From Arenicellales bacterium (GTDB taxonomy: Bacteria > Pseudomonadota > Gammaproteobacteria > Arenicellales > JAJDZL01), in assembly GCA_965203865.1 (NCBI GenBank), contig OZ241916.1, positions 2,872,738-2,936,737 of the forward strand: DNA of 64,000 nucleotides, given 5' to 3'. The notes below the pieces were generated by a model. The model ran no database searches and was not told the DNA's origin. It saw only the letters and a program-made list of their open reading frames with translations. The translations under genes and the position numbers were made by a program. Positions 6,640 through 34,490 of this stretch are shown in pieces. Positions within the stretch are counted from its first letter, which is position 1, and each line of letters opens with the position of its first letter.

Positions 6640-7482
6640 TTGATGACTGGAATGCTACCTCGAATTCGACCCTATCCGGTTTTGGCAGCCAACTGTTTGG
6701 ATTATCAGTCCGATCACAATTATGAGACTCGTCATGAAATTCATGAAGGCACCGATAGCCAACTGGTACTTGAGCATCAACTTACCGAGAATAACTTGGT
6801 TGCACGACTGCTTCAGGAAGGCAAAGCTCAATTTTGCTGCACATTCACCTCTACTTCGTCGGCCTACCGCGAGGTTTTTACAGAGAGTGGTCAACTAACT
6901 ACGCATAAGCAGATTATAGAGTTGGACAGGTCAAGAGCTACATACCCATTATTCTGCCAGTCTGCAATCATCACGGTAGATGAAATATTTCATGTCGTTG
7001 CACCTGACAGAGATGGTTTGCATGAATTTTGGCACGGTACCTCTTTAGTATTTCCAAAAGGTGCATTTCTAGCTATGACGCCATTTTGGCGTGCCAACGA
7101 CCCACTGAGAAGCATCTTGATTGTGAAAAAAGCACGAGATGGCGAGCTACCTGACGGATGCTTCGAAGTCAAGGAGGCTGAAGAGAACGGGTTTTATTTT
7201 GAAATGACCGTTGCTCCCGATTTGTATGGTTGCCTGATAAATGCAGGAGGAAATGCTACTGCTCATCGCGACAGCATATATTCAGCTGCCTTAGCACAAG
7301 GGTTTGAGATTTTGCAAACTAGGTACAAAGAAAAAGAGGCTTGGACTCCTCATCACAATCTTCGCGGACTTTACGAGATGCTAATCTCACGAAATTTACC
7401 CACTTGGATGGATGACGAATTTAGCCCAAATCGCACCGTCGCAAAATTTCATCCCCACAAAATTATTACTGATATTGATTAA
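6640..7482 (+). CDS. hypothetical protein (module member, no motif recognised)
   Basis: 280-aa ORF abutting the upstream stop. It begins TTG at 6640, with an ATG at 6643 that is the likelier start. Its sequence looks like a real protein and it is packed tightly in the operon. Confidence 0.7.
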   Translation: MMTGMLPRIRPYPVLAANCLDYQSDHNYETRHEIHEGTDSQLVLEHQLTENNLVARLLQEGKAQFCCTFTSTSSAYREVFTESGQLTTHKQIIELDRSRATYPLFCQSAIITVDEIFHVVAPDRDGLHEFWHGTSLVFPKGAFLAMTPFWRANDPLRSILIVKKARDGELPDGCFEVKEAEENGFYFEMTVAPDLYGCLINAGGNATAHRDSIYSAALAQGFEILQTRYKEKEAWTPHHNLRGLYEMLISRNLPTWMDDEFSPNRTVAKFHPHKIITDID

Positions 7483-7509
7483 ATCACTGATTAGGCGGAA
7501 TTTAATCAA

Positions 7510-8373
7510 GTGAATACCTTAAAATTCAACATTCTTTCTGCGGCAGATTTATCTCGCCTTAGACATGAGCTGATAAAAGGCGTTGGTGGCGAGCCTCCTT
7601 CCACCCTTATTCACAGGCAGAAGAAGTTTTTGGAATCAGTTGCTTGCAAATCTGCTACAGCACTTTTGGATCAACTTCCCGAAGGACGGGGAGACACAGA
7701 ATTAACGCTTCCGGTATTCAATAGAAAAATCACTGAGGCAGAACTATTTGATCCGCCTATTGACACTGAAAAGCTAATCTTTTCGACTCTCAGCGAACTC
7801 GAACCACGGTACGCTTGCTCACCAGCGTTCTGGGCAAGCCTGCATTTACAGTTGATATCGCGTGACATTGTCAGCCCGTCTTATTTTGCGATGGGGAAAG
7901 CTACTATGTCAGGAAGAGCCCGTATTCAAGAATCACTGCAATGCGATGATGCAAAAATGATTGATAGGTGTGTAAGAACATTTTTTCGAAGATTTTGCGG
8001 ATTACCTGAGGTAAGAGGAACTTCCAGTGTTTTTATGGACTGTCGTACTGCACGAGCTTGGTGGCGCGGGTTCTTGGTTAGTGAAGTACGCCAGTATATT
8101 GATGCGGAAGAAGAAAAACTGTGGAGAAAACTTAGGCATACAGAATTTTGGACTCACTTGATGATGTATGGAGTCCGAAGGCTAACCGTAATCAGTGATA
8201 AGAAAATTCGAGTGGCAACCATCGTTAGATTTGCTGAAATGCACCCTGAATTAAAGTCAAGACAAGATATTCAGCAATTTCTTGGAAAAATCGGAGCGAG
8301 ATCCACTTATCAGGTAATGGGAGCCCTTACGGTTGATGAAAACTTGAAAATTATTCAATCGCTTGAGAAGTAA
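7510..8373 (+). CDS. hypothetical protein (module member; the length is what I recall for SspB-type proteins, but no motif was verified)
   Basis: 287-aa ORF with a GTG start. The next gene's ATG directly follows its stop (TAAATG). Confidence 0.7.
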   Translation: MNTLKFNILSAADLSRLRHELIKGVGGEPPSTLIHRQKKFLESVACKSATALLDQLPEGRGDTELTLPVFNRKITEAELFDPPIDTEKLIFSTLSELEPRYACSPAFWASLHLQLISRDIVSPSYFAMGKATMSGRARIQESLQCDDAKMIDRCVRTFFRRFCGLPEVRGTSSVFMDCRTARAWWRGFLVSEVRQYIDAEEEKLWRKLRHTEFWTHLMMYGVRRLTVISDKKIRVATIVRFAEMHPELKSRQDIQQFLGKIGARSTYQVMGALTVDENLKIIQSLEK

Positions 8374-9657
8374 ATGCAAATCACCAAGCAAAGCCAACCA
8401 TTACCGAGACTTCGCGGGCTTCCTCAAATTGAATTAAACTACGAAGTTCCACACCATAAGGAATTGCCGCACGTCTTCAAGTTTTCAGGCGGAAGATCCA
8501 GCTCTATGCTGTTGCTTGCACTTTTGAAGAGTCGTCAACTTCGACCTTCGCGCGGAGATGTAGTCGTTTTCAACAATACTTCAACTGAATACCCAGCAAC
8601 CTATGAATTTGTGACCACATGCAAGCGCATTGTGGAACAACGCTACAACATTCCATTTTTCTGGCTGGAATTTCAAACCTATGAAGATGCTCGAAGAGGC
8701 CAGTGGTCGCGTCTTCCCACTTTTCGCTTGGTACATCCGGTACCGTACTCTAAATCCAAACCTAATGGTTACCGGCACAAAGGAGAGGTGTTTGAAGAGC
8801 TTGTGTCATGGAAGCAGCAACTTCCAAACCGATTCACACGACTATGTACTCAACATTTGAAATTGGAGACGACCGCGAATTTTCTGGGCGAGTGGCTAGC
8901 GGTAAAGAGCCAAACTCATCGCCTCGGTCATTGGTACGACAAAACGAAAGTTAAAGCAGTCGACCAAAGTGAACGAGCAAAACTTCAAGAATATCTTTTA
9001 TCCCAACCCCCAACGCGATCTAGACAGAAATTTCAAGATTACACTTCTGCCAAGCTGGTAAGAATTTCCAAAAAGAGGCTAGCAGAATACTGCCTTGATG
9101 AGACGGCGACATTGAAAGGTCTTAACCCGGTAGAGTTTATCTCAATCATTGGACTTCGCGGTGACGAGCCGCGTCGCGTTGCGCGGGTGAAGGAACGAAA
9201 TCGATCATTTGCAAATTCGTCTGACTTGCCTGATCGCTTAGCGGACGGAGAGCATGTTTATATGCCACTATTCGATGCAGAAATCGATCGAAATGATGTT
9301 TTGAAATTTTGGTCGAAACAAACTTGGGACTTAAATACTCCTCATAGTCTGAACTTGTCCAACTGCGTATACTGTTTTATGAAAGGAAAGCAAACCTTGT
9401 CCTTGCTAGCATCGAGGGAGTGTTCAACCAAAAACAATTCTGCTCAATATGGACCAGAGCATATTGAGTGGTGGAGTGATATAGAGAATCGTTATTCGCG
9501 GCAGATGGCAAGCAAGCGAAAAAACGGAGCTATAACCAGATTCGGCTTTTTTGGAGCAGATGCCCCAGTATCGTATGCACAAATTCAGAAAGAGGCACGG
9601 ATAAACTCAGACATCGCTCTTGATTCGGACTCACTACCCTGTGAATGCACTGACTGA
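8374..9657 (+). CDS. PP-loop ATP pyrophosphatase of the PAPS-reductase family (DndC/SspD-like)
   Basis: 427-aa ORF. PP-loop variant FKFSGGRSSSMLLLALL is near the N-terminus. Cys motifs NCVYCFMKG and the C-terminal LPCECTD fit the DndC / PAPS-reductase family. A cysteine desulfurase gene lies adjacent. Confidence 0.8.
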   Translation: MQITKQSQPLPRLRGLPQIELNYEVPHHKELPHVFKFSGGRSSSMLLLALLKSRQLRPSRGDVVVFNNTSTEYPATYEFVTTCKRIVEQRYNIPFFWLEFQTYEDARRGQWSRLPTFRLVHPVPYSKSKPNGYRHKGEVFEELVSWKQQLPNRFTRLCTQHLKLETTANFLGEWLAVKSQTHRLGHWYDKTKVKAVDQSERAKLQEYLLSQPPTRSRQKFQDYTSAKLVRISKKRLAEYCLDETATLKGLNPVEFISIIGLRGDEPRRVARVKERNRSFANSSDLPDRLADGEHVYMPLFDAEIDRNDVLKFWSKQTWDLNTPHSLNLSNCVYCFMKGKQTLSLLASRECSTKNNSAQYGPEHIEWWSDIENRYSRQMASKRKNGAITRFGFFGADAPVSYAQIQKEARINSDIALDSDSLPCECTD

Positions 9658-9662
9658 GACTG

Positions 9663-10823
9663 GTGAACGCTACAAAAGACGTAATCTATCTTGACCACCA
9701 AGCAACAACTCCGGTTGATTCTCGTGTACTAGATGCGATGCTGCCGTATTTTTCCGATGAATTTGCAAATCCACACGGCAATACCTATACGCTTTCAATA
9801 CTCGCCCGAGATGCGGTTGAAAACGCCCGACAACAAATCGCTGATACAGTCAGCGCTTCCCCACAGGAGATTTTCTTTACCGGAAGTGCCACTGAATCCA
9901 ATAATCTAGCACTGTTTGGAACAGCAATGGCAAGCAAGAAAAAACGTATTGCGATTGTAGCAACTGAACATAAATCTGTCATTGAACCAGCAATTCGGCT
10001 CCGTTCACAAGGCTATCAAGTGGATGTATTCAAAGTAGCGAAAAATGGAATCCTTAATCCCGAACATGTTCGTCTTGCGTTAAAGGATGACACAATTCTA
10101 CTGTCAGTAATGCTGGTCAACAATGAAATCGGAGTCATTCAGCCGGTTAGAGAAATTGCAAAGATATGTCATGAAAAAGGAGTATTTGTACATTCAGATT
10201 GTGCACAGGCACTAGGCAAGATTCCAGTCAACCTAAAGAACCTTGGTGTTGATCTTGCCACTTTCTCTTCGCACAAAGCTTACGGACCGAAAGGGATAGG
10301 AGCGATATACATTCGGCGAAAACCTAAAGTTTTAATCAAACCGCTTATACTGGGCGGCGGTCAAGAAGGTGGCATTCGCTCTGGAACTTTGCCAGTTCCA
10401 CTATGTGTAGGTTTTGGTACAGCAGCTACACTCGTTAAGAAACAATTGGCAAATGATATCAAGCGTATTGACCGTCTCACAAAAAAACTGCTTGATGGAT
10501 TCAGCAATGTCAAAAGTGATATCTTATTAAACGGCGACCCTGATCGTTTAGCACCCGGATGTCTAAGTATTTCGTTTCCCGGTTACCGAGGCGATAGTTT
10601 AATTGATGCGTTCTCCGGAATAGCATGTTCGACTGGCTCTTCTTGCGAAGCAACATCCACAAACGTTTCGCACGTTCTGCGCGCGATAGGTTTATCCAAA
10701 GCAAGGGCAGAATCTACACTAAGGTTCGGTATTGGTAGAGATACCGATGAAGGACAAATATTTTCCGCACTTGAAATCATTAGAAAGCATTTTCAAGGAG
10801 AGAGTGATTTACGGGAAGCATAA
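9663..10823 (+). CDS. class V PLP-dependent cysteine desulfurase (IscS/NifS/DndA/SspA-like)
   Basis: 386-aa ORF with a GTG start. IYLDHQATTP N-terminus, PLP-lysine context FSSHKAYGPKGIGAIYIR, and catalytic-Cys loop ACSTGSSCEA. Confidence 0.9.
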   Translation: MNATKDVIYLDHQATTPVDSRVLDAMLPYFSDEFANPHGNTYTLSILARDAVENARQQIADTVSASPQEIFFTGSATESNNLALFGTAMASKKKRIAIVATEHKSVIEPAIRLRSQGYQVDVFKVAKNGILNPEHVRLALKDDTILLSVMLVNNEIGVIQPVREIAKICHEKGVFVHSDCAQALGKIPVNLKNLGVDLATFSSHKAYGPKGIGAIYIRRKPKVLIKPLILGGGQEGGIRSGTLPVPLCVGFGTAATLVKKQLANDIKRIDRLTKKLLDGFSNVKSDILLNGDPDRLAPGCLSISFPGYRGDSLIDAFSGIACSTGSSCEATSTNVSHVLRAIGLSKARAESTLRFGIGRDTDEGQIFSALEIIRKHFQGESDLREA

Positions 10824-10955: not shown

Positions 10956-11963
10956 CTATCCTGGCGTTTTCGCCTCGTCTGTCAATTCGTACCTTAAATC
11001 GGGATTAAAGTTCGGAATAGCTATAAATGCACCTCCGTTTTGACGCGCCACCTCCCGCATCAAAACTGCAAACCGGTCATTTGTAGTAATCAAATCCTGA
11101 TTCAAAAAACCAATTCCGTGAATCCGTGCACGCGGCTCACCCGTAGCCGGATCCCTGTTTATTCTGTTAATTCTGTTCAGTACATCGTCATACGACGGAC
11201 CAGTATAGTCATCCCCGAACACATAGATTGACAAACTCTCTGTTTTACGGACGTAGGCATTTAATGCAGTAGTTACGCCTTCCAGGGGACTACTGTTTGA
11301 AAAACTACTCCAAGATCTCATTCGACGCAATACCGACCTTCTTCTTGAAGGTGTGTCTGGAATCCATTTTCCCCCGTAAGCCGATATCAGGTAGTTTCCC
11401 ATATCATTCATAATTTGAAATCCTTTCACCTCAGGATGAATGTCCAGAATATTTTCAATTTCCCGAATGACTCGAGACCAAATTGCCATCATACTGCCCG
11501 ATGTATCCACAACAAAAATGACATGCTCGCTGTCAACCGGAATCCCGCCAACTTCTACTACCTTTTCACTTGTGGCACCCGGTTGCTCCTGAACAACCGG
11601 TTCGCTTTCCTGACTTTGCAAAGCGGCCAGCTCGGCTTGTTTACTGGCAATCTCTTGTTCCAGCGATTCCAGGTTTTCGTCGGACCCGCTAAGCACGTCT
11701 GATGCGATAGAAAGACGTGTTTGCTGCAATTCAATTTGCTGCTGAAGATATTCATTCCTTTTCTCCGCCTGGTCCGATTTGTCCTCCGCCGTCATAACAG
11801 CATCCAGCAAGTTGTTCACTTGAGTCACATCGGGAATACCGCCTTCTACATCCTGCTTTGACAACAGTACAAGCAGTACTATCGCACCAAAGCCGCAACA
11901 AATCACGTCCAAAAATGAGACGCTAAAAATTTCAGTGCCTCTTCTGCGTTCCTTCATGGCCAA
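10956..11963 (-). CDS. ExbD/TolR-like membrane anchor fused to coiled coil and vWA domain (paralog 2)
   Basis: 335-aa ORF. The N-terminus RRRGTEIFSVSFLDVICCGFGAIVLLVLL resembles the ExbD/TolR TM helix with its conserved Asp. A Q/E-rich coiled-coil segment follows, then a vWA MIDAS motif VIFVVDTSGSM. It overlaps the upstream gene by 10 nt. Confidence 0.8.
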   Translation of the reverse strand: MAMKERRRGTEIFSVSFLDVICCGFGAIVLLVLLSKQDVEGGIPDVTQVNNLLDAVMTAEDKSDQAEKRNEYLQQQIELQQTRLSIASDVLSGSDENLESLEQEIASKQAELAALQSQESEPVVQEQPGATSEKVVEVGGIPVDSEHVIFVVDTSGSMMAIWSRVIREIENILDIHPEVKGFQIMNDMGNYLISAYGGKWIPDTPSRRRSVLRRMRSWSSFSNSSPLEGVTTALNAYVRKTESLSIYVFGDDYTGPSYDDVLNRINRINRDPATGEPRARIHGIGFLNQDLITTNDRFAVLMREVARQNGGAFIAIPNFNPDLRYELTDEAKTPG

Positions 11964-13054
11964 AAGGGTGGAGGACTAACCATCATGCCACCTGTTGCAG
12001 AATTCCATTGCCAATACGCAAATGCAGCATTAGGGTCTCCTTCAATTGGAAGCAGTACAGTATTGATTTTGGTTTTTCTGCCTGTAGAAAATCCGACAAT
12101 TGCAGAATAGAACAATGCCTCCCTGCAAGCACTCGTAATCGTCGCATCTTTTTTTGAATAAGATTTACATCTTAGTGCTCTTCGATATTTTAAGCTCAGC
12201 TTGCCAACTCCCTTTGTTGGCAAGCCGTCAGTAATAATATAAATGTCTGACGGCCTCAGTTTGTTCGTCCTTATGTGCCTTAGTGCCTCTTCAAAATTCG
12301 TGGCATTTTCCGGATGCAACTCGGCAAGCGCATCCTCGACCTGTTTTCTTTCCTTGGCATCAGAGCCCTTTATCCATTGTCGCCCATGCAAAAACCGCGC
12401 TTTTTCGTTGTAAGACACTATGAGATACTCGCTGTTATCCGGAACTCGATCCATTATCCAATTCACAACTCTCAAAGTGCGCTGCCATTTGGGAGCGGAC
12501 TTTTTTGCAGACACATCGGCGATCTGAGTTTTTACAATATCAATCAAACGCTCGTTTGCCATTGATGCACTGCTATCCAGCAAAATCAGGATTCGGTCGC
12601 CGCTGACTCTCAAACCGATTAAATGATCTTCTGATACTTTAGGGGAAATATTTGCCCCTTGGGGAGTTTCTACGCTGGCGACCTGAGTTTCTTGAGTCTT
12701 TATTTTTGCTTTCATTTCGGCAATGGCAGTATCCAATTGCTCGATTTCTTTGTTCTTGGCATCAATGCTGGCACTCGTCTGAGAAGTACCGCCTTCTTTT
12801 TCGTTTATTTTTTGTGTTAGTGTCTCAAGCTGCTGTTCAAGCAAGTTGTTTTCTGCCAAAGTCGCTTCGGTTTGACTTTCAATTTCTGCAATGTCGAAAG
12901 CAAGTGCAGAATTTTCTATATTCGGCACCTCAGTTTGGTACTTCACCAGCATGAAAATCAAGGTTACTGCTCCAAGTCCGCATGACATCACGTCAAGAAA
13001 AGCAATATTGAAGCCTTCAGGTCTTCGCTTAGCTCTCCTCATCGGTTTTTCCAA
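11954..13054 (-). CDS. ExbD/TolR-like membrane anchor fused to coiled coil and vWA domain (paralog 1)
   Basis: 366-aa ORF. N-terminus is RRAKRRPEGFNIAFLDVMSCGLGAVTLIFMLV (ExbD-like, Asp in the TM helix). A coiled-coil segment and the MIDAS motif ILILLDSSASM follow. It overlaps the MotA-like gene. Confidence 0.8.
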   Translation of the reverse strand: MEKPMRRAKRRPEGFNIAFLDVMSCGLGAVTLIFMLVKYQTEVPNIENSALAFDIAEIESQTEATLAENNLLEQQLETLTQKINEKEGGTSQTSASIDAKNKEIEQLDTAIAEMKAKIKTQETQVASVETPQGANISPKVSEDHLIGLRVSGDRILILLDSSASMANERLIDIVKTQIADVSAKKSAPKWQRTLRVVNWIMDRVPDNSEYLIVSYNEKARFLHGRQWIKGSDAKERKQVEDALAELHPENATNFEEALRHIRTNKLRPSDIYIITDGLPTKGVGKLSLKYRRALRCKSYSKKDATITSACREALFYSAIVGFSTGRKTKINTVLLPIEGDPNAAFAYWQWNSATGGMMVSPPPFWP

Positions 13055-13826
13055 TACGATTCAGCAAAAACTTTTCACAGTAAGCCTGTGTATCCACCAC
13101 TAGCCCATCCTGCAAGCGCTGCAGCTGATGCAAAAAAAACATGAGAAATATGCTTATGATCAAAGCTACAAATGTTGAATTGAATGCGACTCCCAGACTC
13201 GCTGCCATATTGGCAATATCTCCGGAAAGAGCTTCATCGGCTTGTGCAAGAGCTTGGCCGATTCCACGTACAGTGCCCAGAAATCCAATTGAAGGAATCG
13301 CCCAGATCAAATATCGGATCATCGCATTTTCGGACTCGATGCGTGCAGCCAACGCGTCTACGCCGGTAACGATCGCATCAGAGGTGTTTTGAACACTATT
13401 TGTTATTACAAAACGACGAACCGAAGCTGTTAATGTTTCAACCAGGGGAGTGCTTTGAACATTCTGGGGAAGCGAGTGCAATGACTCCAAACTCATCTCC
13501 ATCTCTTCAACGATAGTTCGGGGCTCTACTGATTCTTCGTCATCGGGGGAGGATTCCATCAAATCAATGTCGAACAAATACCTGTGCCGCGCGATTGAAA
13601 TGCACTTGTCAATGATCAGGAACAATCCCCAGAACATGAGGATAATGCAAATTTCCTGCTCGTAGTCTTTCAAAACAACTGCAAGCGTTCGAATAGTGGA
13701 CTGTCCTTCAGCTTGAGCAATCGCCAGCGCTCTTTCGGCCTGAGGACGAATCACTCCTGTGTAGAGCAAGTGCACGCCCGAGGCGCTAATGATCAGTGCA
13801 ATGATACTCTTGAATACGGATGGCAT
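13029..13826 (-). CDS. MotA/TolQ/ExbB-family proton-channel protein
   Basis: 265-aa ORF with several hydrophobic helices. The C-terminal signature IWAIPSIGFLGTVRGIGQALAQA...FNSTFVALIISIFLMFF is typical of the MotA/ExbB family. Confidence 0.85.
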   Translation of the reverse strand: MPSVFKSIIALIISASGVHLLYTGVIRPQAERALAIAQAEGQSTIRTLAVVLKDYEQEICIILMFWGLFLIIDKCISIARHRYLFDIDLMESSPDDEESVEPRTIVEEMEMSLESLHSLPQNVQSTPLVETLTASVRRFVITNSVQNTSDAIVTGVDALAARIESENAMIRYLIWAIPSIGFLGTVRGIGQALAQADEALSGDIANMAASLGVAFNSTFVALIISIFLMFFLHQLQRLQDGLVVDTQAYCEKFLLNRIGKTDEES

Positions 13827-13838
13827 TTATATCAAGAA

Positions 13839-14003
13839 TCAAATATCAACAGGGAACTTCGCAGGGCTGTTCAGACTAATGGAATACGGTTTATTGTCAG
13901 CGTCTACTTCGGTTACCAGTCCGTATACAACCCAGGCCGCCAATAGTGCGGCAATCAATCCGGCCCAATACAACTTATTTCTGAATCCTGCAACTGCTTT
14001 CAT
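13839..14003 (-). CDS. small single-pass membrane protein (54 aa, below the ORF-track cutoff)
   Basis: Hand translation gives MKAVAGFRNKLYWAGLIAALLAAWVVYGLVTEVDADNKPYSISLNSPAKFPVDI. Its ATG shares one base with the upstream stop (TGATG). It ends 12 nt before the MotA-like start, filling an otherwise unexplained 176-nt gap. Confidence 0.6.
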   Translation of the reverse strand: MKAVAGFRNKLYWAGLIAALLAAWVVYGLVTEVDADNKPYSISLNSPAKFPVDI

Positions 14004-16036
14004 CATCTGCCTTTCCCGTACACATACCTTGCAATGCGAAATCCTACCATATCTTTGCCCTTGTCCAAGCCTTCCCGAAAACTGGAACGTATTTCAGTCA
14101 AGCTTGCAGAACGAAAATTACTCCCCTTTATTACATGGCTGGAACCAAAAGGAGCACCGAACGGGTCCACCTCAAGCTCCGCTGACTGGGAAGGAAGCAG
14201 CATATAAACATCATGCACCCATTCACTCACGTTTCCCGCCATGTCATGCAATCCAGCCGAATCTGGTGGAAATGAACCAACCGGAGCAACCGAAGGGTAG
14301 CCATCTTTGTACCGGGGTATGATTTTTTCAAGAACCTTCTTGCCGCTCTCATCCGCAAGATTTCCACTCCCTGCAGGAATTGTCATTTCATCACCCCAGA
14401 CAAAGCGCACTTTCTTTTGCCTCCCGGCAACTCGTGCCAGCCATTCCCATTCCGCTTCAGTCAACAAGCGATAGCCGTTTGCTTGCGAATTGAAATTGGC
14501 AACCCATCCGTTTGCAATCTCATACACCAACTCCAGCCCTTCCTTCTTGCTCAGCCAATTGCAAAATTCTACCACATCTATCCATGATACATTCCTTATC
14601 GGCAGGTCCGGTTTGGTAACTTGATTTCCTTTAAATCGTGCAAACTGGCCCTCGGTAATTTCTGTAATACCGGCAAAAAACGGTTTCGTCAACTCAACAT
14701 TTCTCAAGATTTCGTTGGCGCGCTGTCCTTTTTCGCTTCTTGGTGCGCCCATAGTGAACTTTCCCCTTGAATCATTGCCGGGTTTAAACAGTTTCATCTT
14801 GACCCCGATAGAATTGGTAATCATGGGTGGGGCTTCCGACATTAGTACATCAAATTCCTTTTGGAGTGTCTTCTCCACCAGAAGCGGTGAACTTGCATCA
14901 GGAGTAATTTGTACATCTACAGCTCTGTAGCCGTCTCTTTTCAGCGTCAAGGATTGCGGAACGGTCTGAAGATCCAGTTGCCTTGGCGTGGTACCGATGG
15001 ACTTTCCGTTTAATATGATTTCCGATTCCGGACTTGACCTGACCACGACTTGCCCTGTTTCTTCTTCCAGTTGAAACTGGACATCCAAACGTTCATCAGG
15101 CTTCAGGTTGATACTTCTGGATTGGGATACATATCCTTTTTTCTCATAGACAAGTATGTGATTCTGGCTTGGTGTTACCGGAAATGCGGACGAAGGGTCG
15201 ACAAGTAGTCCGTCAACTGTAAACATTCCTCCCGATGGCGACACTTTAGCCTGTACAAAAGCCATCTTCATACTTAGCAAGAAGTCTCGAACCAGGTCTT
15301 TTGACTTGTTGGTAATTTCAACTGTGTCGGTTGCCGTTAAATAGCCAGAAAGACTTACGCTTATATTGTGAACACCTCCTTCCAGACTATCGATTTTCAA
15401 GGGGGTTCGACCATACTGTCTACCATCAACTTCAACCAACGCCTGCTCAGGAACTGAGTTAATAGACAAACTACGAGAAACAGGCTTGAGTTGCACCTCC
15501 ATTGAAACAGACTCTCCCCTTTCCACGTCAATATCAATAGATTCTTTCTTAAAGTACGGATGGTCAATTTCAAACGACTTCGTGCCGGCAAGCATTTTTT
15601 GAACAAATCTCTCACCTACAAATACCCTTTCACCGTTTAGACTCCATTGCGTACCGGAACTTGCTGGAATGGTCGAAATTTCTACTGTTGCAGGAACCTC
15701 ACGCATATTGACAGACAGGTTTCTGATTCCTGAACCAAAATCCACCGTGGGAGTTTCATCGTAAAATCCTTTGGCCTGAATAAGCAGACCCACTTGCCCG
15801 CCGAGCGAAAACACTTTCCCCGCAATAACAATTCCGGCGCCATCGGAAATAGACATTTCTGAAATTAATGCAGCTTCCTGTGGCGTTATGTGAACGGATA
15901 CTGCCCTAGTCCAGTAATTTATTGCTGCAGCAATAAGCAATAGCAGCAATATTCCCAGACCAGCAAACAATAATCTGGCTCGAAAACGTTTTTTCGCAAT
16001 AACAAGTTGCTGGTCAAATTTGTTCACTGCATACAA
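14003..16036 (-). CDS. membrane-anchored PEGA-repeat protein with C-terminal FGE-sulfatase (SUMF1/EgtB/PvdO-type) domain
   Basis: 677-aa ORF. N-terminal TM segment LLFAGLGILLLLLIAAAI. PEGA-like segments are present, e.g. VEVDGRQYGRTPLKIDSLEGGVHNISVSLSGY. FGE-domain motifs are GYRLLTEAEWEWLAR, GNVSEWVHD and VIKGSNF. Confidence 0.85.
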   Translation of the reverse strand: MYAVNKFDQQLVIAKKRFRARLLFAGLGILLLLLIAAAINYWTRAVSVHITPQEAALISEMSISDGAGIVIAGKVFSLGGQVGLLIQAKGFYDETPTVDFGSGIRNLSVNMREVPATVEISTIPASSGTQWSLNGERVFVGERFVQKMLAGTKSFEIDHPYFKKESIDIDVERGESVSMEVQLKPVSRSLSINSVPEQALVEVDGRQYGRTPLKIDSLEGGVHNISVSLSGYLTATDTVEITNKSKDLVRDFLLSMKMAFVQAKVSPSGGMFTVDGLLVDPSSAFPVTPSQNHILVYEKKGYVSQSRSINLKPDERLDVQFQLEEETGQVVVRSSPESEIILNGKSIGTTPRQLDLQTVPQSLTLKRDGYRAVDVQITPDASSPLLVEKTLQKEFDVLMSEAPPMITNSIGVKMKLFKPGNDSRGKFTMGAPRSEKGQRANEILRNVELTKPFFAGITEITEGQFARFKGNQVTKPDLPIRNVSWIDVVEFCNWLSKKEGLELVYEIANGWVANFNSQANGYRLLTEAEWEWLARVAGRQKKVRFVWGDEMTIPAGSGNLADESGKKVLEKIIPRYKDGYPSVAPVGSFPPDSAGLHDMAGNVSEWVHDVYMLLPSQSAELEVDPFGAPFGSSHVIKGSNFRSASLTEIRSSFREGLDKGKDMVGFRIARYVYGKGR

Positions 16037-17765
16037 CCGTTACATCAACCGGTCTACTTCCGGGTTCTATGTTTACAGAAACCCGGACTGACCTGTAGCC
16101 ATCACGCGACCCTTCAAATACATGTTTACCGGGACGCAGCTGAATAGTTCGACTTGTTGTTTTTCCTACAATCCCCACGCCAACTACAACAATGTGGGTT
16201 TCATCATCAGATATGACATTGACTTCAACTTTCTTTTCATACAGCACCAGCCTGGCAGACAACTTTTCATGTAATTGCTTTAACTTGGGGCTGAAGTCAA
16301 GATACAGTTCTGCGTCTTGCAAATGTCCGAGCACCTGGTTTGCAATGTTTGAGTCTGCCAGTCTGTTTTCAAGCACAAGATCCATATCAAGTTGATTCGT
16401 AATCGACACAATTACATTTGCTGCTTTTTGATTTTCGATTGTTACCAAGTCATTGGGCTTGAGTTTCAGTGCCTCGGTAAAGTGATGCAAGGATTGATTC
16501 CAGTTGTCTTTTTTAGCAAATTCTGTTGCAAGGGCCACTTGTTTCGAAAATTGCTGCTCATTTTCCACTGATTTGATTTTACTGTCCAGCGCAGCGACCT
16601 CGGCTGACTTCGGGAAAATACTCTTGGCAATCGAATACTGCTTTTTCGCCTTTTCCAGATTTTCTCTGCCCAGCTCCCTGTTGGCACTACGAATGGCATC
16701 AGCGAACCTTTGCCTTGTAATATTATTCTGAATACTTGCAATACGGTCCTTTACCTCGGGGCGATTCGAGTCAAGGCTTATCACCTGCTTCAAAATTGCA
16801 AGTTCTTTCTGAGGCTGGTTTGTATTCCGAGCAATGCTGGCTTCGCGTAGCAAATTCAATACTTCCCCCAGCGTATTGGCGCGAGGCTGCAGTGCAAGCA
16901 TTTCGGAATCGTTTGGGGAAAGTCTTAGTGCTTCACTTATATAGTTGCTGGCTTGCAAGGGTTGATTATTTAAAAATGCGGTGTTTGCTGCAAATTTCAA
17001 TTCGTCAAGTTTCGCAGCATGCTCGGCTTCCAACCGCTCCACTGTGTCAATTGCATTGTCAAGAGTTTCGGCTGCCCCCTTGTAATCGCCAACCGAAAAC
17101 ATTTCTGTCGCCCTTTTCTTGGATTCCGCCAGATCATCAGTTTCTGCAGCTGCCCAAGTAGCCAAATTCAATTGAGCTATTATTGGTTGGACTGTTTGTT
17201 CGTAATACCTGAATTTTTCCAGGTACTCTTTTCGAAAATCTATGGATTCACCAATGGTCGGCTGGGGTTGCACGGAATCATCTTTACTGGCTACCTGATC
17301 AACTTCCACAACTTCCGTTGCTGGCTGCGCAGTCTGACCTTCAACAATTTTTTCCGAAGTGGTCTGTTCCTCCTTTCCCGATTCACTGTCAGCCAAGTCA
17401 GTTTGACTGGGTATTAATTGAGTTGCTTTTTCCTTTTCATCTGTCGGTAATATCTTGTCAACGAGTGATTCCACCAAGGAGGATTCTTGAACATCCCGTG
17501 ATTCAACTTGATTTTCAGCTACTGCAGAATATTCAGGCGATGGTTGATTCGTATTGTCAAGATTTTCTGTTGATAAAATTCCCTCATCCACTTCGGCAGA
17601 GATTGATTCCGACGGCTTCTCAGGCGGAGCATTCTGTTTCTCAATTACATAGAATTGCAAAAAAATCGCAGCTGCGAGTACAGCTGCGGCCAACCCAAAC
17701 CAAAGGTAGCGAGAAGTTTTTTGATACTGCTGTGCTCTTACCCTTGAAATCTTGTCCTCAAGCAT
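16014..17765 (-). CDS. membrane-anchored TPR-repeat protein with acidic linker and C-terminal PEGA-like domain
   Basis: 583-aa ORF. TM segment WFGLAAAVLAAAIFLQFYVI is followed by an E/Q/S-rich region. TPR-like repeats are visible, e.g. ASNYISEALRLSPND and LHHFTEALKLKPND. The C-terminus is GKHVFEGSRDGYRSVRVSVNIEPG. It overlaps the next gene by 23 nt. Confidence 0.75.
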   Translation of the reverse strand: MLEDKISRVRAQQYQKTSRYLWFGLAAAVLAAAIFLQFYVIEKQNAPPEKPSESISAEVDEGILSTENLDNTNQPSPEYSAVAENQVESRDVQESSLVESLVDKILPTDEKEKATQLIPSQTDLADSESGKEEQTTSEKIVEGQTAQPATEVVEVDQVASKDDSVQPQPTIGESIDFRKEYLEKFRYYEQTVQPIIAQLNLATWAAAETDDLAESKKRATEMFSVGDYKGAAETLDNAIDTVERLEAEHAAKLDELKFAANTAFLNNQPLQASNYISEALRLSPNDSEMLALQPRANTLGEVLNLLREASIARNTNQPQKELAILKQVISLDSNRPEVKDRIASIQNNITRQRFADAIRSANRELGRENLEKAKKQYSIAKSIFPKSAEVAALDSKIKSVENEQQFSKQVALATEFAKKDNWNQSLHHFTEALKLKPNDLVTIENQKAANVIVSITNQLDMDLVLENRLADSNIANQVLGHLQDAELYLDFSPKLKQLHEKLSARLVLYEKKVEVNVISDDETHIVVVGVGIVGKTTSRTIQLRPGKHVFEGSRDGYRSVRVSVNIEPGSRPVDVTVVCSEQI

Positions 17766-17777
17766 AATGGAGCATTC

Positions 17778-19091
17778 CTACAACTGAGTCTCCGGCGTGG
17801 CTTCCAGTTCGTAAATTTTTCTCAGAAATTCAATCCACTGCCCGTATTGCTCCGAAGCATTGCCAACCAGTTGCGCCGTTTCGTTTTCAAATTCCACCAC
17901 TTGCGGACCCAGTTCCAAATCAAGCGATTCCCCCAATTCATTCAGTGCATCAAGGTGGACTCGAGATTCTGCGTTGTCTTGCAAGCCACTCCGAATTGCA
18001 AGAACACCTCCAACCAAAGCCGCGGCTGTCGCTGCTCTTGTGCCGCTGTCATAGCTGTAGTCGTCCCTGGAGGCACCGGCAACAGCCAAGCCGATTGCCA
18101 GAGCACCGAGAAATGTTTTCATCGAGCCTGCACTCTTTGCCTTTCTTGCCGCCTTGGCTTCCGGCAGTGTTCGTTCTTGCCACACCAAATAGCTTTCATT
18201 CAACTTGCTGTTGAATTCCATATAGTGGGATTGCATTCGATCAATAAACAATTGGTCGCGGACGCGTATTACATTGACTCTTTGCAGCATGGGGTCGCTT
18301 TCAGCAGGAAGTGCTACCAATTTAATCCGCTTCCCATCACTGGTCATATATTTTGCAAAAGTCTCTTCTGACAAGCTGCTGGCAAATCGAATTTGCTTAA
18401 GAGGGGGAAGACCACGCAAGTAATTCTCATCTTGCTTTTTCAACTGCTCAACAACGTACTCGGCAGCTTTCTTGAACACAGGTTCATATGAGTCCTTTCC
18501 CTTGTTTCGATAGGTGTTGTAAAACTTTTCATCAACCCTGTGTGAAAAAGACTTGGTGAACCACTTGCGGCCAGAAATGTCATAGGCTGTAATTTCGATT
18601 TCTACATCTTCGCCATTGGAATTGATAATTTTTCCCTGAACGTAAAAGTCCGCTGTAACGACTGGACTAGGAACAACCCTGACTGCACCGAAGGCCTTCG
18701 TATCTTCCAATGCAGTTTTCATGTTCAGCGCGAAACGCGTTGATTCGGCACGCCTTAGCTCAGGCCATATTCCCAAGTTTGCAGTATCATTCTGAGCCTG
18801 ATGACTGCCGTAACCCGGGTCGCCAGGCTCAACTTTCACACCTTGCTTCGCGTCCTTTTTGGGGGACAAGTTAGGGTCAAACACCGGGATGGCGACTTCA
18901 AGCTGCAACGAACTAAAAGCCGGAACCACTTCCTTGGATGCCTGATTCTGCTGGCCGAAATTAGAGGATAATGATGGCCCTACCGGAATATTTTCAATTG
19001 AGCCGCCTGCACTCTGATTAGTAGGGGCAGAACCGCAACCGACCAATCCAAGCGTAATTGCAGAAAAGACCAGAATACTGGTCAATTTCAT
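17778..19091 (-). CDS. lipoprotein, function unknown
   Basis: The ORF extends to 19118, but the likely start is the internal MKLTSILVFSAITLGLVGCGS, which has a lipobox (LVGC). A C-terminal hydrophobic G/A-rich segment (FLGALAIGLAVAGA...ALVGGVLAI) is present. It ends 12 nt upstream of the TPR gene. Confidence 0.75.
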   Translation of the reverse strand: MKLTSILVFSAITLGLVGCGSAPTNQSAGGSIENIPVGPSLSSNFGQQNQASKEVVPAFSSLQLEVAIPVFDPNLSPKKDAKQGVKVEPGDPGYGSHQAQNDTANLGIWPELRRAESTRFALNMKTALEDTKAFGAVRVVPSPVVTADFYVQGKIINSNGEDVEIEITAYDISGRKWFTKSFSHRVDEKFYNTYRNKGKDSYEPVFKKAAEYVVEQLKKQDENYLRGLPPLKQIRFASSLSEETFAKYMTSDGKRIKLVALPAESDPMLQRVNVIRVRDQLFIDRMQSHYMEFNSKLNESYLVWQERTLPEAKAARKAKSAGSMKTFLGALAIGLAVAGASRDDYSYDSGTRAATAAALVGGVLAIRSGLQDNAESRVHLDALNELGESLDLELGPQVVEFENETAQLVGNASEQYGQWIEFLRKIYELEATPETQL

Positions 19092-19375
19092 ATTTTTTCC
19101 ATTTCTACTTAAATACATAATCTACATGTCCTTGCTTTACATTTGCATAACTTTGGGAAATCTTCAGAATTTATCTGTAAGAAAACATACCCAAAGCAAT
19201 TTATTTATGCTTATCATACATGATATTCCAGTCGGTTCAACCCCTTGAACTGATATTACGACAGCAATTGTCGCAATCAAAAGCAACTGAACTTATTTCA
19301 AATCAATTCCAGAGCAACTATTCAATCCCATTTTCTGATTCTAAATTGACTTGAAAAACTGAAGCAAACTGTATT

Positions 19376-21013
19376 CTACTTCAAAGGAAGCCCTTTATAT
19401 CTTCTGTACTTGTTCCACAATTCCGCCTGCTTTACCGGGTCAGTTTCTTCCATAGCTGCTTCACGAAGCTGCCTGGCAATAATGGAATCATTGTCTACCG
19501 GAGGTATATCTTCGGGCAACTGTCCATTGGTGGGGGTAGGTGGAACCGTATCCAAAGTTGCCAATTCGGACTCAGCACCTTGCTCGCCGCCTCCACCTGC
19601 TGGCGGTTGGGAATCGACTTCAGAATCAGCGGACTCCGTTCCCTGCATATTAGCACTTGCTATGGCATCGCCTTGCGTCCCGCCGCCTGCTGGCGATTGG
19701 GAATCAATTTCAGAGCCGGCGAGTTCCGTTCCCTGCATCTCAGCACTTGCAGTGGCATCACCTTGCGACTCGGCTTTAGTCTGACTGTATTCGGACCCAG
19801 TTCCCTGTAGTTCGCCATCACTATCTGAACTGCCGCTATTTGATGCAGATACTGTGTCATCGCATGGGGCACGATGCAACGATTCCATCAACAACCCGTC
19901 AAGCAGTTCAATCTTTTCCTCGCGAGTCAGATTCACATTGTCAAGGTTGGGTGCTGTAATCGTATTGCAATCTTGTAATTCTGAAAGCCCTCCGATTGAA
20001 CCTTGTGCATAACTACCATAATTCAAGGGAAGATTTTTATGTTTTCTGTACTCGTTCCACAATTCCGCCTGCTTTGCCGGATCAGTTTCTTCCATGGCTG
20101 CTTCACGAAGTTGCCTGGCAATAATGGAGTCATGGTCTGCAGGAGGTATATCTTCAGGCACCTGTCCATTGGATGCAGCAGAAGCTGTATTCAATGTTGC
20201 CAATTCGGACCCAACACCTTGCTCTCCCCCTGCCGGCGGTTGAGAATCAATTCCAGAGCCAACGGACTCCGTCCCCGGAATATCAGTACTAGCCGTAGCA
20301 TTGCCCTGCGTCGTCCCGCCTTCGCTTGTCGTCGGCCGGGGAGCAGTGCCAGAACTACCGGACCCTGTTCCCTGCAAACCAGCACTTGCCATAGAATCGC
20401 CCTGCGCCCCACCTTCGCCTGTCGACGGCTGGAAACCAATTCCAGAATTGACAGACTCCGTTCCCTGCAAACCAGCACTTGCCATAGAATCGCCCTGCGT
20501 CCCACCTTCGCCTGTCGACGGCTGGAAATCAATTCCAGAATTGACAGACTCCATTTCCTGCATACCGGCGCTCAACCCGGTATCGCCTTGCGAACCGCCT
20601 TCACTTGCTGACGATTGGGAGCCAGTGCCAGAACCATCGGATTCCGTTCCCTGCAAACCAGCACTTGCGGTGGAATCACCTTGTGACTCGCCTTTGCCCT
20701 GACTGTATTCAGACCCAGTTCCTTGTAATCCACCATCACTATCTGAATTGCCGCTATCTGAACCATCACCATTTGATGCAGATGCTGTGCTGTCGCATGG
20801 GACAGCACGATTCAACGGGTCTACCAGCAACCCATCAAGCAGTTTAACTTTTTCCTCACGAGTCAGATTCACATTGTCGAGATTGGGTACTGTAATCGTA
20901 TTGCAGTCTTGTAATTCTGAAATACTCTTGGTCTGACTTTGTGCATAACAGCTAATATGCAGCATTCCTGAGAGGGTGCAAACTAGCAAGGCAAGCAAAT
21001 ATTTTTTACACAT
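19376..21013 (-). CDS. secreted acidic repeat protein with a two-fold module duplication and nested roughly 31-aa tandem repeats
   Basis: 545-aa ORF with signal peptide MCKKYLLALLVCTLSGMLHISCYA. The module ELQDCNTIT.PNLDNVNLTREEK...DSIIARQLREAAMEETDP..QAELWN.YR occurs twice. Internal G/S/T/E/Q-rich repeats such as GDSMASAGLQGTESVNSGIGFQPSTGEGGAQ are present. Confidence 0.8.
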   Translation of the reverse strand: MCKKYLLALLVCTLSGMLHISCYAQSQTKSISELQDCNTITVPNLDNVNLTREEKVKLLDGLLVDPLNRAVPCDSTASASNGDGSDSGNSDSDGGLQGTGSEYSQGKGESQGDSTASAGLQGTESDGSGTGSQSSASEGGSQGDTGLSAGMQEMESVNSGIDFQPSTGEGGTQGDSMASAGLQGTESVNSGIGFQPSTGEGGAQGDSMASAGLQGTGSGSSGTAPRPTTSEGGTTQGNATASTDIPGTESVGSGIDSQPPAGGEQGVGSELATLNTASAASNGQVPEDIPPADHDSIIARQLREAAMEETDPAKQAELWNEYRKHKNLPLNYGSYAQGSIGGLSELQDCNTITAPNLDNVNLTREEKIELLDGLLMESLHRAPCDDTVSASNSGSSDSDGELQGTGSEYSQTKAESQGDATASAEMQGTELAGSEIDSQSPAGGGTQGDAIASANMQGTESADSEVDSQPPAGGGGEQGAESELATLDTVPPTPTNGQLPEDIPPVDNDSIIARQLREAAMEETDPVKQAELWNKYRRYKGLPLK

Positions 21014-30459: not shown

Positions 30460-30994
30460 GAGTTGATAACGTGGAAATTAATGAACTAACAGATGGAATT
30501 GCTGACCATAATTTTTTGCTCGCATACGTCCTTGATGTACTATTTGACTAACAAATATCGAATTTGCTGGATTAATCAGGGATTGAATTCAATTAAACCG
30601 GGTTATTTTCCGCAGTCAACAATGATTGCTGATTATATGAAAAGACACTTGATTAATCAAAAACGCAAAAAGGCGGATTTAGAATGCTGGACATTTTCTG
30701 CCGGAGCTCGATTGACGCAAAACAGAATGAGCAATAAGCCAATTCATTCAAAAAAGTTACCAATCAAGTTCTACTATACAGTTTCTGGCAATATCAATTA
30801 CCACTTCTTTGCCTTCAACTACACGCTTTATTCAATAAAATCAATTTTTCATTAAAGTGAAAACAAATTTTAAGGACTGACTATTCAAGTGTGGATGATT
30901 TTTTCTACCAATCTGTAAACTGTTGTTCCAGTGGAGCGCGGCCAGTCTGAACATGGGGGAGTATCTTTATTGCGTGCGCGTTGAATTGCTTCTT

Positions 30995-31432
30995 CTACCA
31001 TGACTTTTGTAATCGAGTTTCGATTTGGGTTGCCGACCTAATTCTCAAACCTTCCTCGAAATGAAGAAGAAGCCAGTACTCAAATTTTGGATTGCTTAGT
31101 GCTAATCCACGGCTATGAGCTTTTTGGGACCAATTATGAATCTTCAGCAATTGGTCTTCTGGCCAATTATCCCGGTCAACAATTATCCAGGTTTCGTCAT
31201 TTTCACCCAATGTGTTGTCTTTTAAATACTTATTGATTCGATTCAATAAATTTTCCGGGGCTACCTTTGTTGAACTAAAATTTAACGAATGAGTTCGTGC
31301 CGCTTCAGCAAAATTGTTCAAAATTCTGAAATACTGGGGTTCTGTTCTCCTACCCTCTGTACTCAAAATAAATAGTTTTTTAGGTGTCCTTGTCGGGTGT
31401 GTGCTTCTCGTGCTTCTGAATTTATGAGTCAT
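30995..31432 (-). CDS. RloB-like small Toprim-type protein
   Basis: Likely start is MTHKFRS (Met60 of the 204-aa ORF), one nt after the upstream stop. Motifs are FILSTEGRRTEPQYF (Toprim Glu), WIIVDRDNW (DxD) and LALSNPKFEYWLLLHFE. Confidence 0.8.
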   Translation of the reverse strand: MTHKFRSTRSTHPTRTPKKLFILSTEGRRTEPQYFRILNNFAEAARTHSLNFSSTKVAPENLLNRINKYLKDNTLGENDETWIIVDRDNWPEDQLLKIHNWSQKAHSRGLALSNPKFEYWLLLHFEEGLRIRSATQIETRLQKSW

Positions 31433-31433
31433 T

Positions 31434-32786: not shown

Positions 32787-33267
32787 ATTGCTTCAAAAAA
32801 GTAGTTTTGATTTAATTCAAGGTGTAAATTTAATTATTTAACCTTAATTTTACATTTATTATGAGAATATATCTCATAAAGTCAAGCAAAAAATTAACTT
32901 GAAACTCTGATGTTTGGACATCTTGAAAGTCTTTATTGTGCGAGCCATGGGAAAATCACATTCATGTTAGAATTTTAATCACGGACAAAAAAGACTGACC
33001 AAATTCTACCAAGTGAATTTTTAAACGCTTGGTTCAGAATTAAATTTGCAGATGCGGGAATCAACTGTATTGACCCGATAGTAACAACAGTACAGGAAAA
33101 TGGGCATTTCAACCGACTTTTCTTTTTGTCGTACTCCCTGAGGGTTTTGACGGTACAATACTGCTAATTACACTTGGAAGGTACCTAATCAAACAGATTA
33201 AAAGTATTCATGTTAACTATATGATTGCTTCGCACATTTCTGTAGAATAAATCATCGATATCATTTT

Positions 33268-34489: not shown

Positions 34490-34490
34490 T

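What the first reader, a model, noticed from the sequence alone, without database searches (positions are those of the whole stretch)
10956..13054. Paralogous pair of ExbD-TM / coiled-coil / vWA chimeras
The two proteins (366 and 335 aa) share an architecture but are clearly diverged in sequence. This suggests a heterodimeric stator-like unit rather than a recent duplication. Both keep the membrane Asp and complete MIDAS motifs, which argues that both halves are functional. A vWA domain hung on a proton-motor plunger via a coiled coil is an unusual design.
Basis: partly seen in the sequence, partly recalled or inferred. Interest (0 to 1): 0.6.

Follow-up and report, generated by a model that had tools for sequence, protein, structure and literature searches.

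The report
Paired vWA-tipped axle proteins of proton motor
Two diverged sister genes encode membrane proteins (Asp-bearing helix, long coiled coil, vWA adhesion head) that are always found together behind a MotA/ExbB-type proton-channel gene, so they most likely replace ExbD/TolR/MotB as the central pair of a proton-driven envelope motor; a 2025 paper already predicted this family, but its job in the cell is still unknown.

Summary
Two translationally coupled genes on the minus strand (B1, 11954-13042, 362 aa; B2, 10956-11957, 333 aa) are ancient paralogs (25% identity; profile-profile E 8.6e-25). Both have an N-terminal helix with an invariant F-L-D motif, about 11 unbroken heptads of coiled coil, a flexible linker and a vWA domain. 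They follow a MotA/ExbB-family gene. In 160 related loci the partner paralog was present in every testable case (78/78 and 79/79), and MotA in 77/77. No ExbD/TolR gene lies nearby. The link to ExbD rests on position and context only: Pfam, PDB and hhalign profile tests found no significant similarity. A heterodimer is inferred, not shown. The idea is not new. PMC12204202 (Mol Biol Evol 2025) describes this "TPH-vWA" pair next to tolQ-like genes, seeded from Idiomarina, and I found the same operon in Idiomarina xiamenensis. That paper's text does not mention two things seen here. First, the pair ends a conserved eight-gene envelope operon: secreted protein, lipoprotein, TPR, PEGA/FGE-like, micro-protein, MotA-like, B1, B2. 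Second, the micro-protein has an invariant C-terminus, FPVDI-COOH, which makes it a candidate ligand. Verdict: a new member of a published but experimentally uncharacterised family; moderate interest.

The parts
11954..13042 (-). B1: 362-aa paralog. Cytoplasmic basic N-terminus, Asp17 helix (FNIAFLDVMSCGLGA), coiled coil about residues 43-121, linker, vWA domain with DxSxS/T248/D272, two invariant Cys (C292, C306) and an invariant C-terminal W-P.
   Evidence: (VWA_2 E 6e-8)
10956..11957 (-). B2: 333-aa paralog. Same plan as B1. Asp17 helix (FSVSFLDVICCGFGA), coiled coil about residues 44-118, vWA domain with DxSxS/S222/D249. Sequence models do not recognise it as vWA.
   Evidence: (VWA_2 E 0.048)
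13029..13826 (-). MotA/TolQ/ExbB-family proton-channel protein (265 aa), the presumed pentameric partner. Invariant WAIPxxGFxGTVRGIG (T185) and AFNST (S217/T218).
   Evidence: (PF01618 E 3.7e-14)
13839..14006 (-). Micro-protein (55 aa), not listed at the 60-aa ORF cut-off. N-terminal signal/TM segment and an invariant extreme C-terminus ...SLNSPxxFPVDI-COOH. Its stop lies 12 nt before the MotA-like start.
   Evidence: 115/126 loci; Idiomarina
14003..16036 (-). N-terminal TM anchor, PEGA repeats and a C-terminal FGE-sulfatase-like domain (677 aa). The closest named relatives, GldK/PorK, score far below cut-off.
   Evidence: (FGE-sulfatase 2.6e-35, PEGA 7.8e-29)
16014..17765 (-). N-terminal TM anchor followed by TPR repeats (583 aa).
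17778..19118 (-). Predicted lipoprotein (446 aa; lipobox LVGC). No known family.
19376..21013 (-). Secreted protein (545 aa): a tandem duplication of a module that is single-copy (about 190-400 aa) at the head of the operon elsewhere. The module has a Cys-pair N-domain, an acidic Gly/Ser linker and a conserved C-terminal DIPPxDND...LWNEYRKYKGLP motif.

Best explanation
B1 and B2 are the two central 'axle' subunits of a proton-driven 5:2-type inner-membrane motor whose outer ring is the MotA/ExbB-like protein encoded just upstream.

Proposed mechanism:
1. The N-terminal helix of each paralog sits inside the MotA-like pentamer. Its invariant Asp17 acts as the proton-binding residue and faces the invariant Thr/Ser of the channel.
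2. In the periplasm the two chains pair as a parallel coiled coil of about 80 residues (about 12 nm).
3. A flexible linker of 15-20 residues follows, then two non-identical vWA heads whose metal sites grip an acidic ligand.
4. Proton flow is thereby turned into rotation or pulling on a periplasmic or outer-membrane partner. Candidate partners are encoded in the same eight-gene operon: the FPVDI-COOH micro-protein, the acidic secreted protein, the lipoprotein, and the TPR and PEGA/FGE-like anchors.

Shown here: the architecture, the conserved residues, obligate three-gene linkage and the absence of any ExbD/TolR gene. Inferred: insertion into the pentamer, heterodimer stoichiometry, the identity of the ligand and the physiological output.
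For: - Gene linkage: the MotA_ExbB Pfam hit lies immediately upstream, and stop and start codons overlap at both junctions. MotA-B1-B2 order holds in 77/77, 78/78 and 79/79 testable loci across several phyla.
- No ExbD/TolR homolog was found in the window or in 80 loci of about 20 kb.
- The F-L-D...C-G-x-G-A helix is invariant in both paralogs despite 25% overall identity.
- The MotA-like protein has invariant T185 and S217/T218 in its last two TM helices.
- Both proteins have about 11 uninterrupted heptads and a single long helix in AF2 models.
- Spacer lengths from the Asp to the DxSxS motif co-vary between B1 and B2 (Spearman 0.87 over 52 loci).
- Both C-terminal domains have the vWA fold with conserved MIDAS residues.
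- B1 has an invariant Cys pair, which fits a periplasmic location.
- An independent AF3-based proposal of the same model exists for the Idiomarina family (PMC12204202). The same operon is present in Idiomarina xiamenensis.
Against: - No profile method links the helix to ExbD, TolR or MotB.
- The helix is rich in small residues (S/C-C-G-x-G-A), unlike the Leu/Val-rich ExbD/TolR helices.
- AF2 confidence for the TM segment is low in the monomer models.
- No complex model could be run here.
- The e/g-position charge test for hetero- versus homodimer gave no discrimination.
- The spacer-length covariation is largely driven by two clades.
- There are no experimental data for any member of the family.
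Confidence: 0.7

Rival explanations
1. Two separate motors. B1 and B2 each form homodimers, giving two kinds of MotA-like(5):B(2) complexes with different vWA specificities, rather than one heterodimeric axle.
For: All structurally solved 5:2 motors that I know of have homodimeric B subunits (my knowledge). The e/g charge analysis gives no preference for the heterodimer. The heptad registers relative to Asp17 differ by 3 residues between B1 and B2.
Against: Adjacency is strict at 100% and the genes are translationally coupled, with a single MotA-like gene. Spacer lengths co-vary between the paralogs. The published AF3 model is a heterodimer. Paired, diverged B-type genes are also known in other motors, for example AglQ/AglS with AglR in Myxococcus (my knowledge).
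Confidence: 0.2
2. Passive anchors. The N-terminal helices merely tether two vWA adhesion or scaffold proteins to the inner membrane, as in BatA/BatB-like proteins. The MotA-like protein would be an unrelated channel or would act through another partner.
For: No ExbD/TolR/MotB profile similarity was found. There is a faint NCBIfam BatB hit for B2 (E 0.049).
Against: A generic anchor would not keep an invariant charged Asp and an invariant 10-residue motif across phyla and across paralogs. The MotA-like gene has no other B-type partner nearby. The BatB score is 12.7 bits against a cut-off of 350. No MoxR or DUF58 gene is present in the operon.
Confidence: 0.07
3. Zorya-like anti-phage system. 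A MotA-like/B-like membrane sensor would detect envelope perturbation. The locus sits beside a defence-like cluster in this window.
For: Weak PADLOC ZorA2 hits to the MotA-like protein (E 7e-4). Neighbouring plus-strand genes match the defence candidate PDC-M33A/B and an SspD-like protein.
Against: The ZorA hit covers only the generic MotA/ExbB channel region. There is no ZorA tail, no ZorB peptidoglycan-binding domain and no nuclease or helicase effector in the operon. The defence-like neighbours are not conserved next to the operon in 80 other genomes. The operon is a stable, syntenic block of eight envelope-protein genes.
Confidence: 0.05

Closest known systems
'TPH-vWA' motor partners next to tolQ-like genes (PMC12204202, Mol Biol Evol 2025, section 8, Fig. 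4c-d; seed Idiomarina loihiensis)
   Same: Every feature described there is met: a TM-tethered vWA protein with a conserved Asp; tight linkage to a tolQ/motA-like gene; no tolR/exbD gene; occurrence as a heterologous pair; no SHLS motif; conserved Thr in the channel protein. Idiomarina xiamenensis carries the same operon, and its B2 is 40% identical to the window's B2.
   Different: Nothing distinguishes the pair itself. The paper's text does not describe the coiled-coil stalk, the Thr-to-Ser change in B2's metal site, the wider eight-gene operon, the FPVDI micro-protein, or the variant with an extra gene between MotA and B1. I could not compare directly with the authors' I. loihiensis sequences, because the held supplements give no accession.
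ExbB-ExbD / TolQ-TolR (Ton and Tol motors)
   Same: A MotA/ExbB-family channel gene is followed by genes for single-pass proteins with a basic cytoplasmic N-terminus and an Asp near the start of the helix. The local motif FN(I/L)xFLD(V/I)M resembles INVTPFIDVM in ExbD.
   Different: There is no detectable homology to the ExbD/TolR family model. The ExbD/TolR periplasmic domain is replaced by a coiled coil plus vWA. No separate TonB/TolA-type transducer is needed, because the axle itself carries the binding head.
GldL-GldM / PorL-PorM with GldK/PorK (type IX secretion and gliding motor)
   Same: A 5:2-type motor whose two central subunits extend across the periplasm, encoded with an FGE-sulfatase-fold envelope protein.
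   Different: There is no sequence relationship to GldM. The FGE-like protein scores 62.7 bits against a GldK cut-off of 350, is TM-anchored with PEGA repeats and is not a lipoprotein. The taxa are Proteobacteria and Acidobacteriota, not Bacteroidota.
AglR-AglQ/AglS (Myxococcus gliding motor)
   Same: One MotA/TolQ-like gene occurs with two diverged B-type paralogs. This is a precedent for a non-identical axle pair (my knowledge).
   Different: AglQ and AglS are short TolR-like proteins without a coiled coil or vWA. The vWA adhesin of that system, CglB, is a separate outer-membrane lipoprotein (PMC9946355, abstract).

Membership tests
TPH-vWA pair (PMC12204202) | Single N-terminal TM helix with a conserved Asp and no SHLS/His motor-binding motif | tested here: met
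   F15-L16-D17 is invariant in 40 N-termini of both paralog families. No S-H-L-S motif and no His occurs in the helix sequences.
TPH-vWA pair (PMC12204202) | C-terminal vWA fold | tested here: met
   Pfam VWA_2 for B1. Foldseek matches to solved vWA domains for both models at E about 1e-6.
TPH-vWA pair (PMC12204202) | Tight co-occurrence with a tolQ/motA-like gene and no tolR/exbD gene nearby | tested here: met
TPH-vWA pair (PMC12204202) | Occurs as a heterologous pair | tested here: met
   B1 immediately upstream of B2 in 78/78 loci; B2 immediately downstream of B1 in 79/79 loci.
TPH-vWA pair (PMC12204202) | Sequence relationship to the Idiomarina seed | tested here: inconclusive
   Idiomarina xiamenensis has the same operon, and its B2 is 40% identical to the window's B2 (E 3e-69). 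The authors' I. loihiensis proteins themselves could not be retrieved.
TPH-vWA pair (PMC12204202) | Helices predicted to insert in the pentamer, with the Asp ringed by conserved Thr | not testable with these tools
   Only monomer prediction is offered. Invariant T185 and S217/T218 in the MotA-like protein are compatible with this.
ExbD/TolR family (Pfam PF02472) | Match to the family model | tested here: not met
   No hit at E<=1 for the full proteins or at E<=10 for 40 N-terminal fragments. hhalign against E. coli ExbD/TolR N-termini gives 1.1% probability.
ExbD/TolR family (Pfam PF02472) | Periplasmic ExbD/TolR alpha/beta domain | tested here: not met
   The periplasmic part is one long helix plus a vWA domain.
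ExbD/TolR family (Pfam PF02472) | N-terminal TM helix with an essential Asp, encoded after an ExbB/TolQ-type gene | tested here: met
MotB/PomB/ZorB-type stator B subunits | C-terminal OmpA-like peptidoglycan-binding domain | tested here: not met
   No OmpA-family hit in Pfam or NCBIfam. PADLOC gives no ZorB hit.
vWA domain with a canonical MIDAS site | DxSxS ... T ... D metal-coordinating residues | tested here: met
   B1: D156, S158, S160, T248 and D272 are invariant in 120 sequences.
vWA domain with a canonical MIDAS site | The same residues in B2 | tested here: inconclusive
   D151, S153, S155 and D249 are invariant. The Thr position is occupied by an invariant S222, placed from the alignment and the predicted helix start rather than from coordinates.
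BatA/BatB aerotolerance vWA proteins | Match to the BatB model and MoxR/DUF58 neighbours | tested here: not met
   NCBIfam BatB scores 12.7 bits against a cut-off of 350. No MoxR-type gene is present in the operon.

The most novel reading that the evidence does not exclude
The pair is the axle of a previously undescribed, widely conserved eight-gene trans-envelope machine. The tiny secreted peptide encoded right before the motor gene has an invariant ...SFPVDI-COOH tail. That tail would be the acidic ligand captured by the vWA metal sites, or by the catalytically dead-looking FGE-like domain. The proton motor would then pull on, or reel in, a peptide-tagged partner. Together with the lipoprotein, TPR and PEGA components this would form a Tol-Pal- or GldLM-like system of a new kind.
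Probability: 0.3. Interest if true: 0.7.

Novelty: new member of a known kind. Interest (0 to 1): 0.45.

Why it matters
Proton-driven 5:2 motors power flagella, TonB-dependent uptake, Tol-Pal envelope maintenance, gliding and type IX secretion, and Zorya defence. Here the axle itself carries adhesion-type heads, so force would be delivered without a TonB/TolA-like intermediary. That would be a distinct way of coupling the membrane potential to the outer envelope.

The family is large. There are 327 clusters at 50% identity with E<=1e-30 for B1 alone, spread across marine Gammaproteobacteria, sponge symbionts, Zetaproteobacteria, sulfate reducers and Acidobacteriota. Even so, no phenotype is known for any member.

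The operon map and the FPVDI micro-protein give concrete binding and genetic experiments. These can be done in culturable hosts such as Idiomarina, Pseudoalteromonas denitrificans, Microbulbifer echini, Opacimonas viscosa and Sneathiella.

Tried and rejected
1. A Pfam scan of the full proteins and of 40 N-terminal 44-aa pieces, looking for ExbD/TolR, found nothing.
2. A family profile of the N-terminus searched against all PDB chain sequences gave 0 hits at E<=10.
4. An e/g-position charge-complementarity test, meant to separate heterodimer from homodimer, gave scores within +/-2 for all pairings and is uninformative.
5. Covariation of the Asp-to-DxSxS spacer lengths is positive but confounded by two clades, so it counts only as weak support.
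6. The defence-system reading is rejected. PADLOC gives only generic MotA-region hits, and the defence-like neighbours are not conserved elsewhere.
7. The BatA/BatB reading is rejected.
8. The paper's supplements were searched for the Idiomarina accessions, and none is held.
9. The afdb50 fold library was unavailable.
10. Cluster look-up gave no source names for the window's proteins.
11. No terminator-like or promoter-like site was found downstream of B2.
12. The extra gene found in many related loci gave no Pfam hit, and only faint Hsp70 and FHA hints in the PDB.
Full report
**What is there**

The mechanical ORF list starts both at TTG. The ATGs at 13042 and 11957 give 362 aa (B1) and 333 aa (B2), which are the lengths of 100%-identical public gene calls. 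With those starts, B1's ATG overlaps the stop of the upstream gene, and B2's ATG overlaps B1's stop as ATGA. This is the usual signature of translational coupling.

The upstream gene (13029-13826, 265 aa) matches Pfam MotA_ExbB at E 3.7e-14. It has weak, roughly equal NCBIfam similarity to TolQ, ExbB, MotA and ZorA.

**The two proteins are true but old paralogs**

- BLASTP between them gives 25% identity, E 8e-17.
- The alignment of 20 B2-family members against 20 B1-family members gives hhalign probability 99.6%, E 8.6e-25 over 255 columns.
- Each family has thousands of homologs.
- A B1 profile finds 327 cluster representatives at E<=1e-30 among 1.84 billion. Nearly all of the 150 listed are 330-380 aa and most match end to end.

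**Architecture**

AF2 models were built from 120-sequence alignments (mean pLDDT 81.7 for B1 and 72.8 for B2). Each shows:

- a short N-terminal helix;
- a break;
- a single long helix (43-121 in B1, 44-118 in B2);
- a low-confidence linker of about 15-20 residues;
- an alpha/beta domain with pLDDT above 90.

Foldseek places both domains among solved vWA domains (ITIH1, anthrax toxin receptors, integrin I domains, CLCA1, Rpn10) at E about 1e-6 to 1e-5. Only B1 is recognised by Pfam vWA models; B2 scores E 0.048.

Family-averaged hydrophobicity shows a single unbroken heptad register over about 11 heptads in each protein. Positions a/d are about 0.6 hydrophobic against about 0.07-0.12 elsewhere, and 0 of 1000 shuffles reach this. 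About 80 helical residues correspond to roughly 12 nm. Together with the linker and the head this could span much of a periplasm (inference).

**Conserved residues**

Forty N-termini from both families share invariant F15, L16, D17, C21, A25 and L28, and near-invariant G22 and G24. That degree of conservation is incompatible with a generic signal anchor. The basic residues before the helix imply an N-in topology, which puts the vWA heads in the periplasm. An invariant Cys pair in B1 (C292, C306) fits that location.

- B1 metal site: D156-x-S158-x-S160, T248 and D272, all invariant.
- B2 metal site: D151-x-S153-x-S155 and D249 are invariant. An invariant S222, just before the helix that corresponds to B1's T248 helix, appears to replace the Thr.
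- MotA-like protein: 124 non-identical sequences share invariant WAIPxxGFxGTVRGIG (T185) and AFNST (S217/T218) in the last two membrane helices. ExbB and TolQ carry their pore-lining Thr in the corresponding helices (my knowledge; also stated for this family in PMC12204202).

**Is the helix ExbD/TolR?**

By every profile test available, homology is not demonstrable.

- No ExbD hit for the full proteins at E<=1.
- No ExbD hit for 40 N-terminal fragments at E<=10.
- No PDB chain found with the family profile at E<=10.
- hhalign against E. coli ExbD/TolR N-termini aligns FNIAFLDVM with INVTPFIDVM and superposes the Asp residues, but at 1.1% probability.

The helix is also rich in small residues, unlike ExbD/TolR. 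So these proteins are not members of the ExbD/TolR family. The claim that they work like ExbD/TolR/MotB rests on context.

**Context and co-occurrence**

A genome scan seeded with B2 gave 80 loci from Gamma-, Alpha-, Zeta- and Deltaproteobacteria and Acidobacteriota; the closest are sponge-symbiont MAGs. A metagenome scan seeded with B1 gave 80 more. After HMM classification of all ORFs:

| Test | Result |
|---|---|
| B1 immediately upstream of B2 (B2-seeded loci with upstream sequence) | 78/78 |
| B2 immediately downstream of B1 (B1-seeded loci) | 79/79 |
| MotA-like gene upstream | 77/77 |
| ExbD/TolR homolog in the window or in 80 genome loci | none |

So neither paralog is dispensable, and the MotA-like protein has no other B-type partner.

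The spacer from the Asp to the DxSxS motif co-varies between B1 and B2 (Spearman 0.87 over 52 loci). Much of this reflects two clades. An e/g charge test could not separate heterodimer from homodimer.

**Prior knowledge**

PMC12204202 (Mol Biol Evol 2025, section 8, Fig. 4c-d) already reports this family. It describes TM-tethered vWA homologs that co-occur tightly with tolQ homologs, without tolR/exbD and mostly as heterologous pairs. Their 'transpore helix' carries the conserved Asp, and AF3 places it inside the TolQ-like pentamer ringed by Thr. The seed was Idiomarina, and the function is stated to be unknown.

I confirmed that Idiomarina xiamenensis carries the same operon. Its B2 is 40% identical to the window's (E 3e-69).

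**What goes beyond that text**

First, the pair closes a conserved operon that is present in almost every locus with enough sequence:

1. a secreted protein, tandemly duplicated in this window;
2. a lipoprotein;
3. a TM-anchored TPR protein;
4. a TM-anchored PEGA plus FGE-sulfatase-like protein;
5. a micro-protein;
6. the MotA-like protein;
7. B1;
8. B2.

Second, the micro-protein (window 13839-14006, 55 aa) has a signal/TM segment and an extreme C-terminus, F-P-x-D-I followed by the stop codon. An ORF ending this way lies a median of 10 nt before the MotA-like start in 115 of 126 loci, with F in 110, P in 115, D in 112 and I in 115 of those 115. It is also present in Idiomarina. It matches no Pfam or NCBIfam family. 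An acidic residue next to a free C-terminal carboxylate is a plausible ligand for a MIDAS site. The S-F-P-V-D sequence also loosely resembles the (C/S)-x-P-x-R motif bound by FGE-fold domains (my knowledge). Either binding mode is speculation.

Third, 47 of 71 genome loci carry an extra gene of about 420 aa between MotA and B1. This window lacks it, and the gene has only faint Hsp70 and FHA similarity.

**Rivals**

- Two homodimeric motors cannot be excluded (0.2).
- Passive anchoring is unlikely, given the invariant Asp motif and the lack of any other axle gene (0.07).
- A Zorya-like defence role is unlikely. Only generic MotA-region PADLOC hits were found, there are no effector genes, and the defence-like neighbours of this window are not conserved elsewhere.

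**Verdict**

This is a real, well-conserved feature, correctly read by the first stage apart from the ExbD homology wording and B2's Thr-to-Ser variant. It is a new member of a family published in 2025 on bioinformatic grounds and never tested experimentally. The residual interest lies in the unknown function, the full operon and the FPVDI micro-protein.

Noticed in passing
window 13839-14006 (- strand); also L161:8017-8145 and about 115 other loci: Small gene, unlisted at the 60-aa ORF cut-off, encoding a signal/TM segment plus an invariant C-terminal ...SxSFPVDI-stop, directly upstream of the MotA-like gene. No Pfam or NCBIfam family. Candidate ligand for the vWA heads or for the FGE-like domain.
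   Followed up: partly
window 13839-21013 (- strand): Five further genes (secreted protein, lipoprotein, TM-TPR, TM-PEGA-FGE-sulfatase-like, micro-protein) are syntenic with MotA-B1-B2 in nearly all of 160 related loci. The functional unit is therefore an eight-gene envelope operon, not just the pair.
   Followed up: partly
window 19376-21013 (- strand): The 545-aa secreted protein is a tandem duplication (59-63% identity between the two copies) of a module that is single-copy, at about 190-400 aa, at the head of the operon in other genomes.
   Followed up: yes
L022-L080 (e.g. L022:7602-8894, L028:7626-8906): In 47 of 71 genome loci an extra gene of about 420 aa lies between the MotA-like gene and B1. 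It has no Pfam hit and no obvious signal sequence or TM segment, and only faint PDB-profile similarity to Hsp70 (E 0.4-1) and to an FHA domain (E 0.45). It is absent from this window.
   Followed up: partly
window 4582-10823 (+ strand): A convergent five-gene cluster: homologs of PADLOC candidate defence proteins PDC-M33A (E 5e-33) and PDC-M33B (E 3e-10), a weak PDC-M33C match, an SspD/PAPS-reductase-like protein and a class-V aminotransferase-family protein (cysteine-desulfurase-like). It looks like a DNA-sulfur-modification-type defence module. It is not conserved next to the motor operon elsewhere.
   Followed up: partly
window 22074-23489 (- strand): A protein with Schlafen AlbA_2, HATPase_c_4 and HTH_11 domains lies just beyond the operon, followed by a phosphoglucomutase/phosphomannomutase-family gene at 23589-24995.
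   Followed up: no
window 30001-38000 and 54001-62000: G+C falls to 0.38-0.40 against about 0.45-0.50 elsewhere, which suggests acquired regions. Two very large ORFs (1539 and 1500 aa) lie at 38142-42761 and 44027-48529.
   Followed up: no
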